This document shows positions 1 to 43,000 of a stretch of DNA of 64,000 bases, one piece after another. A program made the position numbers and the translations under genes. Location of the stretch: positions 1 through 64,000 of the forward strand of contig JAUCBJ010001164.1 in the NCBI GenBank assembly GCA_032718475.1. The letters run 5' to 3'. The stretch comes from Nemertoderma westbladi. Lineage: Eukaryota; Animalia; Xenacoelomorpha. Position 1 is the first letter of the stretch. The number at the start of each line of letters is the position of its first letter. The notes beneath the pieces were generated by a model. The model ran no database searches, was not told where the DNA came from, and was given only the letters and a program-made list of their open reading frames with translations.

Positions 1-752
1 TAAATGAGGAAGGTGAGTAAAAGGATGAGTTGCCACTTAGCAAAACCAGCGGAATGGGTTGTAGATGAGGAAGGTAAGTAGAGTTGCAACTTAGCAAAAC
101 CAGCGGAATGGGTTGTAGATGAGGAAGGTGAGTAAAAGGATGAGTTGCCACTTTGCAAAACGAGCGGAATGGGGTTGTAAATGAGGAAGGTGAGTAAAAG
201 GATGAGTTGCCACTTAGCAAAACTAGCGGATTGGGTTGTAGATGAGGAAGGTGAGTAGAGTTGCAACTTAGCAAAACCAGCGGAATGGGTTGTAGATGAG
301 GAAGGTGAGTAAAAGGATGAGTTGCCACTTTGCAAAACGAGCGGAATGGGTTGTAAATGAGGAAGGTGAGTAAAAGGATGAGTTGCCACTTAGCAAAACT
401 AGCGGATTGGGGTTGTAGATGAGGAAGGTGAGTAAAAGGATGAGTTGCCACTTAGCAAAACCAGCGGAATGGGTTGTAGATGAGGAAGGTGAGTAAAAGG
501 ATGAGTTGCCACTTAGCAAAACCAGCGGAATGGGGTTGTAGATGAGGAAGGTGAGTAAAAGGATGAGTTGCCACTTAGCAAAACTAGCGGATTGGGGTTG
601 TAGATGAGGAAGGTAGAGTAGAGTTGCAACTTAGCAAAACCAGCGGAATGGGTTGTAGATGAGGAAGGAGAGTAAAAGGATGAGTTGCCACTTAGCAAAA
701 AGAGCGGAATGGGTTGTAGATGAGGAAGGTGAGTAAAAGGATGAGTTGCAAC
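1..752 (+). repeat. ~61-bp tandem repeat (with shorter variants) containing GTAGATGAGGAAG|gtgagt, probably donor-junction derived
   Basis: Unit reads V-D-E-E-G|gt in phase 1, matching the GG TGG GAA TAT start of exon 917 (DEEG-WEY of DysF); the array runs off the window start. Confidence 0.85.
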
Positions 753-916
753 ATGGCAAGAAGACATTATTAATCGACCATCAGGAAATTTGTTGGTAAT
801 TGGCTAAACGATAAGTCTAATGAATGTATTTAACCGTGTGATTTATAGACAACAATTATGTACCGCAAGTTTTACAGCGCTTCTCTTGATGCTATTCGAA
901 CTCTTGTTCGTTTTAG

Positions 917-40000: not shown

Positions 40001-43000
40001 TTATAAAAAAAAGTATTTTTTTGTCCTCCTGATAATCCGAATTCCTCGAAATACTAAAAGCATTTTTTCGTCGGACTTAGGGCCTCGATGAAAATATGCT
40101 TTCAAAACTAAACCTCGAAAATGCAGATTATAAAGTCGGTCAAAAAATGTAACTTTCTTTTTGTAAAATAAATAAGTATTGGTGATATAACTATTTACTA
40201 TTTACCATTTTTCTGCGTTATGGTCCGAGTTTACCGAGCGAGCGCTACTAAGTTATTGATTACTTTGCAGCGTTCCGTCCTAGGCCGCAACGCTGTAAAG
40301 AAGTACCTTGTTGTGTAACAAGGATATCACGAAAAAGTTGATAAGTTGACATAATGTAACAATATATTGTTTAAACTTTTTGTGTTCGAATATATTTATT
40401 TAAATATTTGTCTTACATATTTTTTAGGGTAAAGTAGAAATGGAATTAGAATTAGTTACGGAGCAGGAGGGAGACGAAAGACCGGCTGCGAAAGCTCGCG
40501 ACGAACCCAATTTAAACCCCAAACTAGACCCACCTAAGTAAGTTACTATTATAAACCCTAAACTAAACCCACCTAAGTAAGTTACTAATATAAACCCTAT
40601 TCATATAAACACTACATCTGGACATTAAATATTATATTATCTTAAAATTATCCTCTTTTTTTTTACTTGACAGCAAAAGTGCGGACAATAAAGAATTTAT
40701 AATAATAGTATAAAGTTTTTCAATGAATTTTAAAAGAATTCGTATAAATATTATTCATCCAATCAACGATCTCTTATTTTATTCAGTTGTATTTGAATTT
40801 ATAGTGTTGTCTATATTATAGTTATGTCTAGTGACTACTACTAGGTATGTCTAGTGACTACTACTAGGTATGTCTTGTGACTACTAATAGGTATGTCTAG
40901 TGACTACTACTAGGTATGTCTAGTGACTACTACTAGGTATGCCTAGTGACTACTACTAGGTATGTCTAGTGACTACTACTAGGTATGTCTAGTGACTACT
41001 ACTAGGTATGTCTAGTGACTACTACTAGGTATGTCTAGTGACTACTACTAGGTATGTCTAGTGACTACTACTAGATATGTCTAGTGACTACTACTAGGTA
41101 TGTTTAGTGACTACTACTAGGTATGTCTAGTGACTACTACTAGGTATGTCTAGTGACTACTATACTAGTGACAACTACACTAGTGACTACTACTAGGTAT
41201 GTCTAGTGACTACTACTAGGTATGTCTAGTGACTACTACTAGGTATGTCTTGTGACTACTAATAGGTATGTCTAGTGACTACTACTAGATATGTCTAGTT
41301 ACTACTACTAGGTATGTCTAGTGACTACTACTAGGTATGTCTAGTGACTATTACTAGGTATGTCTAGTGACTACTAGTAGGTATGTCTAGTGACTACTAC
41401 TAGGTATGTCTAGTGACTACTACTAGGTATGTCTAGTGACTACTATACTAGTGACAACTACACTAGTGACTACTACTAGGTATGTCTAGTGACTACTACT
41501 AGGTATGTCTAGTGACTACTACTAGGTATGTCTTGTGACTACTAATAGGTATGTCTAGTGACTACTACTAGATATGTCTAGTTACTACTACTAGGTATGT
41601 CTAGTGACTACTACTAGGTATGTCTAGTGACTACTACTAGGTATATCTAGTGACTACTAGTAGGTATGTCTAGTGACTACTACTAGGTATGTCTAGTGAC
41701 TACTACTAGGTATGTCTAGTGACTACTATACTAGTGACAACTACACTAGTGACTACTACTAGGTATGTCTAGTGACTACTACTAGGTATGTCTAGTGACT
41801 ACTACTAGGTATGTCTTGTGACTAATAATAGGTATGTCTAGTGACTACTACTAGGTATGTCTTGTGACTACTAATAGGTATGTCTAGTGACTACTAATAG
41901 GTATGTCTAGTGACTACTACTAGGTATGTCTAGTGACTACTACTAGGTATGTCTAGTTACTACTACTAGGTATGTCTAGTGACTACTACTAGGTATGTCT
42001 AGTGACTACTACTAGGTATGTCTAGTGACTACTACTAGGTATTTCTAGTTACTACTACTAGGTATGTCTAGTGACTACTACTAGGTATGTCTAGTGACCA
42101 CTACTAGGTATGTCTAGTGACTACTACTAGGTATGTCTAGCGACTACTACTAGGTATGTCTTGTGACTACTAATAGGTATGTCTAGTGACTACTACTAGG
42201 TATGTCTAGTGACTACTACTAGGTATGTCTAGTGACTACTACTAGGTATGTCTAGTGACTACTACTAGGTATGTCTAGTGACTACTATACTATTGAAAAC
42301 TACACTAGTGACTACTACTAGGTATGTCTAGTGACTACTACTAGGTATGTCTAGTGACTATTACTAGGTATGTCTTGTGACTACTAATAGGTATGTCTAG
42401 TGACTACTACTAGGTATGTCTAGTTACTACTACTAGGTATGTCTAGTGACTACTACTAGGTATGTCTAGTTACTACTACTAGGTATGTCTAGTGACTACT
42501 ACTAGGTATGTCTAGTGACTACTACTAGGTATGTCTAGTGACTACTACTAGGTATGTCTAGTTACTACTACTAGGTATGTCTAGTGACTACTACTAGGTA
42601 TGTCTAGTGACCACTACTAGGTATGTCTAGTGACTACTACTAGGTATGTCTAGCGACTACTACTAGGTATGTCTTGTGACTACTAATAGGTATGTCTAGT
42701 GACTACTACTAGGTATGTCTAGTGACTACTACTAGGTATGTCTAGTGACTACTACTAGGTATGTCTAGCGACTACTACTAGGTATGTCTTGTGACTACTA
42801 ATAGGTATGTCTAGTGACTACTACTAGGTATGTCTAGTGACTACTACTAGGTATGTCTAGTGACTACTACTAGGTATGTCTAGTGACTACTACTAGGTAT
42901 GTCTAGTGACTACTACTAGGTATGTCTAGTGACTACTACTAGGTATGTCTAGTGACTACTATACTAGTGACAACTACACTAGTGACTACTACTAGGTATG

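What the first reader, a model, noticed from the sequence alone, without database searches (positions are those of the whole stretch)
1..40598. Systematic tandem amplification of the gene's own exon-intron junctions (splice-site-seeded minisatellites)
Seen: about ten unrelated arrays each have a unit that straddles a ferlin splice site. Donors: junctions at 3517 (47 bp, ~38x), 12028 (49/57 bp, ~29x), 29318 (51 bp, 22x), 34990 (33 bp, ~60x), 37213 (31 bp, ~10x), 39538 (31 bp, ~9x), 40537 (39 bp, 2x) and probably the array at 1-752. Acceptors: 14090 (~39 bp) and 29193 (30 bp). That is about a fifth of all junctions and about a third of donors, although junctions make up a tiny fraction of the DNA. 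The real exon is the first donor copy or the last acceptor copy. Inference: a genome-level process that nucleates or retains 30-60 bp duplications at splice junctions (for example transcription/splicing-coupled damage, or an exon-edge GC/nucleosome boundary) and inflates introns with dozens of decoy splice sites that the spliceosome must ignore.
Basis: partly seen in the sequence, partly recalled or inferred. Interest (0 to 1): 0.9.

Follow-up and report, generated by a model that had tools for sequence, protein, structure and literature searches.

The report
Ferlin gene's donor-biased "mirage" minisatellites
In one invertebrate ferlin gene, ten exon borders have been copied head-to-tail into neighbouring introns, and splice donors are hit about four to ten times more often than chance while the assembled RNA uses the true site where it was checked; this repeat type ("mirage") is already known from lancelets and humans and is likely harmless, but the donor excess is unexplained.

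Summary
Observation confirmed. The window holds the 3' half of an invertebrate dysferlin/myoferlin-like gene. Ten of 21 minisatellites straddle its own junctions: 8 of 24 donors and 2 of 24 acceptors. The excess is real but donor-specific: 8 observed against 0.8 expected (P 5e-7), 1.1 when GC-matched and 2.1 within each array's own intron (P 2e-4). Acceptors are at chance level. DNA contigs from two studies hold the arrays that were laid. A spliced contig uses the first donor or last acceptor at 4 junctions directly and at a fifth by length. At 29318 all 21 decoy donors are in frame without a stop, so mRNA decay cannot explain first-copy use. This is a known kind: lancelet "mirages" (PMC3087553, which calls their origin unclear) and the human F7 VNTR (PMC1557585). 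This scan has noted it in other genomes. The new parts are the density and the measured donor excess, from one gene picked because it looked striking. No transcription-coupled cause was shown.

The parts
1..759 (+). Donor array, 61-bp unit, 13 donor copies in the window; the real exon lies upstream of base 1
   Evidence: the join with exon 917 gives EEG|WEY as in homologs; inferred
917..53815 (+). 3' half of a type-I ferlin gene. Exons 917-1056, 3018-3185, 3337-3517, 11039-11220, 11470-11622, 11930-12028, 14090-14251, 14435-14553, 14765-14864, (25108-25164 unconfirmed), 28845-28970, 29193-29318, 30548-30703 or 31620-31781, 32599-32810, 34794-34990, 36985-37213, 37868-37961, 38178-38365, 39313-39538, 40428-40537, 50236-50383 or 53072-53219, 53783-53815 (stop)
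   Evidence: Pfam C2 and Ferlin_C on single exons; spliced contig
3480..5263 (+). Donor array at 3517: 47 bp x 38 (38 exon + 9 intron bases); 34 of 37 decoys keep GT
   Evidence: first-copy use rests on the protein alignment only
11983..13604 (+). Donor array at 12028: 49/57 bp x 29; 11 of 28 decoys keep GT; ends inside exon-derived sequence
   Evidence: protein alignment only
13970..14100 (+). Acceptor array at 14090: 37-39 bp, 4 copies; 2 of 3 decoys keep AG
   Evidence: protein alignment only
29031..29210 (+). Acceptor array at 29193: 30 bp x 6; 5 of 5 decoys keep AG, each in frame with a stop
   Evidence: spliced contig joins 28970 to 29193
29298..30413 (+). Donor array at 29318: 51 bp x 22; all 21 decoys keep GT and are in frame with no stop (frame open to 30489)
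   Evidence: the contig leaves at the first copy into exon 31620; head-to-tail junction in DNA runs X1 and X2
34966..36936 (+). Donor array at 34990: 33 bp x 59; the intron collapses to 56 bp without it
37199..37505 (+). Donor array at 37213: 31 bp x 10
   Evidence: joint 37213 to 37868 in runs X4 and X5
39529..39810 (+). Donor array at 39538: 31 bp x 9
   Evidence: joint 39538 to 40428 in runs X4 and X5
40509..40599 (+). Donor duplication at 40537: 39 bp x 2.3; exon part 14% diverged
   Evidence: spanned by single DNA contigs in X1 and X2; the spliced contig stops at 40537

Best explanation
These are 'mirage'-type minisatellites: 30-60 bp pieces spanning an exon edge are repeated head-to-tail in the intron, likely seeded by local duplications that arise more often in or at exons than in introns and likely filtered by selection so that mainly donor-spanning ones survive. 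Steps: (1) Shown: each unit is the gene's own exon end plus 3-30 intron bases, or the mirror image at acceptors. (2) Inferred: a seed duplication forms by slippage or templated break repair. Several arrays end part-way through exon-derived sequence (12028, 34990, 40537), so a clean single duplication does not fit all of them. (3) Inferred: ordinary minisatellite turnover amplifies the seed to 2-59 copies, with 88-98% matches between neighbouring units. (4) Shown at 4 junctions, inferred by length at a fifth: splicing uses the copy that keeps the exon its original size. This fits the upstream-first donor scanning shown for human F7. (5) Inferred: duplications wholly inside exons break the protein and are lost, and acceptor copies are more often harmful, so survivors pile up at donors. 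The arrays would then be tolerated intron filler rather than a regulatory device.
For: Anatomy. Donor excess 8 vs 0.80, vs 1.06 GC-matched, vs 2.1 within the own intron (P 2e-4; 7 vs 1.9, P 8e-4, without the edge array). Introns with donor arrays are not shorter than those without (Mann-Whitney P 1.0). Selection alone cannot lift donors above the intronic baseline, so a seeding or expansion bias is needed (reasoning). Spliced contigs use the true site. 149 of 174 decoy donors keep GT and donors with arrays score like those without, which fits tolerance. F7 upstream-first selection; lancelet mirages do not disturb splicing.
Against: One gene, chosen because it looked striking. Donor P falls to 0.006 and 0.034 if every intron is capped at 250 or 150 bp, and the all-junction P falls to 0.045 and 0.27. 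The 8:2 donor-to-acceptor split is not significant (P 0.11). An exon-centred bias predicts some frame-preserving exon-internal repeats, and the repeat scan listed none inside these exons, though there are only 3.8 kb of exon. Contigs drop rare isoforms, so low-level decoy use is not excluded. Nothing here shows what causes the bias.
Confidence: 0.5

Rival explanations
1. The seeding bias is specific to the 5' splice site: co-transcriptional donor recognition (U1 binding, polymerase pausing, R-loops) makes germline DNA there prone to short templated duplications.
For: Only donors exceed chance. The 10 non-straddling units tested carry a sense-strand donor-like 9-mer somewhat more than expected: combined P 7e-5 vs intronic windows, 0.004 vs base shuffles, 0.054 vs dinucleotide shuffles; antisense 0.42. 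7 of 8 donor arrays are G-skewed on the sense strand.
Against: The strictest motif control is only borderline and the weight matrix came from 24 local donors. G skew is partly built into any donor-containing unit. The 8:2 split is not significant. An unchecked scan note (e1-7908560) reports donors and acceptors hit equally in another genome; lancelet mirages occur at both ends.
Confidence: 0.2
2. No bias exists: a very high local repeat load (59% of the window) in short ancestral introns makes junction hits common, and this window is a lucky draw.
For: Arrays cover 38,053 of 64,000 bases. Many collapsed introns are 56-400 bp. Significance weakens under 150-bp caps (donor P 0.034, all junctions 0.27) and within 100 bp of junctions (P 0.033). 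The window was selected for this pattern.
Against: Own-intron null P 2e-4; donor arrays also sit in introns that collapse to 5.8 kb, 2.4 kb and 0.6 kb; acceptors of the same introns show no excess.
Confidence: 0.22
3. The decoy sites are functional, for example alternative donors at 29318 that add 17-residue repeats to ferlin, or sites that tune splicing or mRNA decay.
For: All 21 decoys at 29318 are intact, in frame and stop-free. Human 6-16 and CBS use the nearest pseudo-sites to some extent.
Against: The one X4 contig laid there leaves at the first copy. In the other 9 arrays decoy use gives a stop or frameshift. The units are unrelated to each other and young-looking.
Confidence: 0.06
4. 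The arrays are assembly artefacts.
Against: DNA runs X1 and X2 (different studies) hold the head-to-tail junction of the 51-bp unit at raised depth; an X2 contig runs from that unit into unique intron; both span the 39-bp duplication in one contig. Copies carry patterned variants.
Confidence: 0.02

Closest known systems
Lancelet 'mirage' minisatellites (Adh3; globins BflGb6 and BflGb9; troponin C; PGBD5). Ebner et al. 2010, PMC3087553 (abstract and passages); PGBD5 paper PMC3902484 (passages). The original Adh3 paper (Canestro et al. 2002) was not held and is known to me only through these.
   Same: [quoted passage not shown] Unit sizes overlap (Adh3 10-72 bp). Many but not all copies keep AG/GT. 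Splicing is apparently undisturbed.
   Different: Host is not a close relative of Branchiostoma (ferlin 52.5% identical, no closer than to molluscs or cnidarians). Ten in one gene, with up to 59 copies. The passages read give no enrichment test and call the mechanism unclear; here a donor excess is measured.
Human F7 intron-7 37-bp VNTR, with IFN-inducible 6-16, CBS intron 13, LMNB2 and PDGF intron 4. Borensztajn et al. 2006, PMC1557585 (abstract, introduction and discussion read); CBS 31-bp VNTR c.1444_1467+7(16_21) in PMC2630376 (passages).
   Same: First unit spans the donor; identical pseudo-sites follow; the most upstream site is used.
   Different: The human cases are one per gene. Here 8 donors and 2 acceptors occur in one gene. 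Scanning was shown experimentally for F7 and is only inferred here.
Intron gain or change by internal tandem repeats (Rogers model as cited in PMC3087553; PMC2812944, passages)
   Same: Tandem duplication of sequence carrying splice signals at exon borders.
   Different: No new intron or exon is seen here: the protein aligns to homologs without insertion at the array junctions. Intron positions in other species were not compared.

Membership tests
mirage minisatellite (lancelet definition) | Tandem repeat whose unit spans an exon-intron boundary of the host gene | tested here: met
   10 arrays
mirage minisatellite (lancelet definition) | Many copies retain GT or AG splice signals | tested here: met
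   149 of 174 decoy donors and 7 of 8 decoy acceptors
mirage minisatellite (lancelet definition) | Regular splicing is undisturbed | tested here: met
   Direct joints at 29193, 29318, 37213 and 39538; 34990 by length. Assembled contigs only; 5 of 10 arrays rest on the protein alignment
mirage minisatellite (lancelet definition) | Copy number varies between haplotypes or somatically | not testable with these tools
   Only short-read contigs were available; depth is not copy number
F7-type donor VNTR | The most upstream of several identical donors is selected by position, not by mRNA decay | tested here: inconclusive
   At 29318 decoys are in frame and stop-free yet the one contig uses the first copy; no mutational test and no raw reads
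type-I ferlin (dysferlin/myoferlin-like) host gene | DysF-like segment, C2 domains and Ferlin_C with terminal transmembrane segment | tested here: met
   Alignment to dysferlin/myoferlin homologs; Pfam C2 and Ferlin_C. The DysF label is recalled from the WEY and RRRRW motifs

The most novel reading that the evidence does not exclude
The 5' splice site is itself a germline hotspot for short tandem duplication in this animal: the act of recognising a donor during transcription seeds minisatellites there, so splicing writes its own signals into intron DNA and drives intron growth. A third of donors in this gene are hit, and even non-straddling repeat units lean towards donor-like motifs on the sense strand. 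This would supply the missing mechanism for mirages.
Probability: 0.2. Interest if true: 0.75.

Novelty: new member of a known kind. Interest (0 to 1): 0.4.

Why it matters
The structure is known, but its origin is stated to be unclear (PMC3087553) and the ten paper searches run here (one of them on ferlin exons) listed no title or abstract reporting an enrichment test; subscription papers are mostly outside this library. This gene gives a measured 4- to 10-fold donor excess that survives GC and intron-length controls, which makes the origin question testable genome-wide. The 29318 array is a natural control for position-based donor choice, because mRNA decay cannot hide mistakes there. Practically, such arrays can mislead gene annotation and short-read assembly.

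Tried and rejected
No whole genome is held, so the genome-wide test was impossible. The run search listed no holder on record as RNA; X4 and X5 are labelled 'DNA?' and I treat them as RNA-derived only because they hold GT..AG-spliced contigs. Only 36940-40800 and 28700-29345 were laid, with 4 of the 6 listed runs; X5 had no contig on the second stretch, which proves nothing. GC content as the cause: rejected (GC of the last 30 exon bases, with vs without array, P 0.10). Short introns as the whole cause: not supported, though it weakens the effect. Stronger donors being preferred: scores look similar (that matrix held two mis-registered p25-alpha donors, corrected for the motif test; the with/without comparison was not rerun). 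mis-anchored the 37213 array; it was recounted. My first gene model included both 30548-30703 and 31620-31781 and the exon 25108-25164; the alignment and the X4 contig showed the first two are alternatives and the third is skipped. A possible 7-base micro-exon at 14952-14958 beside the 41-bp array does not keep the frame (by eye). A ferlin tree did not place the animal: weak grouping with two arthropods (support 0.89), best identity 56% or less. A second homolog search found nothing. From the 54 repeat-finder rows I kept 21 arrays with period 20 or more, merging overlapping rows and dropping periods of 8-16 and one 24-mer that is a tripled 8-mer; the own-intron test used 19 of the 21 (it left out 54480 and 60342). 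The scan's notes held nothing for this genome or look-alike stretches. Supplements of the cited papers were not read.

Full report
What is in the window. Tandem Repeats Finder gave 54 rows, which I merged into 21 arrays with period 20 or more; they cover 38,053 of 64,000 bases. Between them lie the exons of a type-I ferlin on the + strand. A single exon found dysferlin/myoferlin homologs. Exons joined by GT-AG give an open frame that aligns end to end with ferlins, and single exons hit Pfam C2 and Ferlin_C. A p25-alpha (TPPP-like) gene lies on the - strand at about 56607-60244. The animal could not be placed: best identity is 56% or less, Branchiostoma 52.5%, and the tree is unresolved. No genome is held.

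The observation. That is 8 of 24 ferlin donors and 2 of 24 acceptors; none of the 5 p25-alpha junctions is hit. Donor units with a known start hold 10-46 exon bases and 3-30 intron bases. 149 of 174 decoy donors keep GT and 7 of 8 decoy acceptors keep AG.

More than chance? I collapsed every array to one unit (26,728 bases) and placed units at random, excluding places wholly inside exons. Ten of 21 straddle a junction against 1.66 expected (P 1e-6). Split by type, donors are 8 vs 0.80 (P 5e-7) and acceptors 2 vs 0.86 (P 0.21). Matching GC within 5 points gives donors 8 vs 1.06 (P 3e-6). Placing each of 19 arrays only within its own intron gives donors 8 vs 2.1 (P 2e-4), or 7 vs 1.9 without the edge array (P 8e-4), and acceptors 2 vs 2.1. 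Against this: masking by-eye transposon-rich stretches lowers the all-junction P to 0.003; capping introns at 250 or 150 bp lowers the donor P to 0.006 or 0.034 and the all-junction P to 0.045 or 0.27; the 8:2 split alone has P 0.11; and the gene was picked for showing the pattern. So the excess is real in this gene, is about 4- to 10-fold, and is carried by donors.

Are the arrays real DNA? Runs X1 and X2, from different studies, cover the laid stretches. Both hold the head-to-tail junction of the 51-bp unit at raised depth, an X2 contig runs from that unit into the unique intron, and both span the 39-bp duplication in one contig. One of them may be the assembly's source.

Which copy is used? 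Run X4 (labelled 'DNA?', but holding a 1,680-base spliced contig) joins 28970 to 29193 (last acceptor copy), leaves 29318 at the first donor copy into exon 31620, and joins 37213 to 37868 and 39538 to 40428 (first copies). X5, from another study, shows the last two joints as well. Taking the contig in both calls as the same record, the 569 letters between its mapped pieces equal the three intervening exons exactly, so 34990 also uses the first copy (inference). The contig stops at 40537. The arrays at about 12, 3517, 12028 and 14090 rest on the protein alignment alone. In 9 of 10 arrays decoy use would give a stop or frameshift, so mRNA decay could hide errors. At 29318 all 21 decoys are intact, in frame and stop-free, yet the one contig uses the first; this favours positional choice. 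Contigs drop rare isoforms.

How it likely works. A 30-60 bp local duplication with one end in the exon and one just inside the intron is amplified by ordinary minisatellite turnover. Some seeds show about 3 bases of microhomology by eye (3517, 39538), while three arrays end well inside exon-derived sequence (12028, 34990, 40537), which suggests templated repair or later deletion. The gene tolerates the arrays because the copy that keeps the exon its original size is chosen, as shown experimentally for human F7. Selection can remove arrays but cannot raise donors above the intronic baseline, so a seeding or expansion bias is needed. I favour a bias towards exonic DNA with a sieve that removes exon-internal and many acceptor events (0.5), over a bias specific to the 5' splice site (0.2) and over pure repeat load plus luck (0.22). 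The one hint for the splice-site version is that the 10 non-straddling units tested carry sense-strand donor-like motifs somewhat more than expected (combined P 0.004 vs base shuffles, 0.054 vs dinucleotide shuffles, antisense 0.42). That is weak.

What is known. The structure is the lancelet 'mirage': tandem repeats spanning exon-intron boundaries in Adh3, globins, troponin C and PGBD5, which do not disturb splicing and whose origin is called unclear (PMC3087553; PMC3902484; passages only). Human single-gene cases are F7, 6-16, CBS, LMNB2 and PDGF (PMC1557585; PMC2630376). I found F7 by my own search; the term 'mirage' came from an earlier scan note and I then checked it in the papers. The scan's unchecked notes list similar cases in other genomes, some with many per gene. 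One calls it a side effect of short introns, which my own-intron test does not support here; one reports donors and acceptors hit equally, which differs from this gene.

Verdict. A dense, well-supported new member of a known kind, with a measured donor excess whose cause is open. Interest 0.4; 0.75 if the splice-site-coupled origin (probability 0.2) were shown genome-wide.

Noticed in passing
window 30548-30703 and 31620-31781: Two duplicated exons cover the same ferlin segment (both match it at about 50%) and look mutually exclusive; the X4 contig uses 31620-31781.
   Followed up: partly
window 50236-50383 and 53072-53219: Duplicated transmembrane-segment exons, both intact and in frame, likely mutually exclusive; the spliced contig stops at 40537, just before the choice. 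One paper search on this found nothing.
   Followed up: partly
window 25108-25164: Possible 57-base in-frame cassette exon; the X4 contig joins 14864 directly to 28845 (8 loose letters) and homolog support is negligible.
   Followed up: partly
window 29043-29192: The decoy acceptor copies differ from the real exon start by two bases, creating a branch-point-like CACTAAC (motif recalled) just upstream of the real acceptor and an in-frame stop in every decoy. The repeat may now supply the intron's branch point.
   Followed up: no
window 56607-60244, - strand: p25-alpha (TPPP-like) gene, three exons in the window; its arrays at 56756-59438 and 60342-64000 stop about 60 and 100 bases from acceptors without straddling them.
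   Followed up: partly
window 40819-48119, 1355-2468, 14965-24821, 50425-51055, 60342-64000: Large non-straddling arrays; the 23-bp unit (313 copies) reads TAG|GTATGT and the 56-bp unit AAG|GTAGGG, both scoring within the range of real donors. No matching exon was found.
   Followed up: partly
window 11983-13604: Most copies carry a G-to-T change that removes the original GT (17 of 28 decoys lack it); probably one or two mutations spread by homogenisation rather than independent losses.
   Followed up: partly
window about 37545-37760; 5800-10800; 48170-50100: A very high-copy short interspersed element (depth above 100,000 in DNA runs); about three copies of a 1.6-kb element ending in ACAGACTC runs; and an element with long inverted ends. 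The last two were seen by eye only.
   Followed up: no
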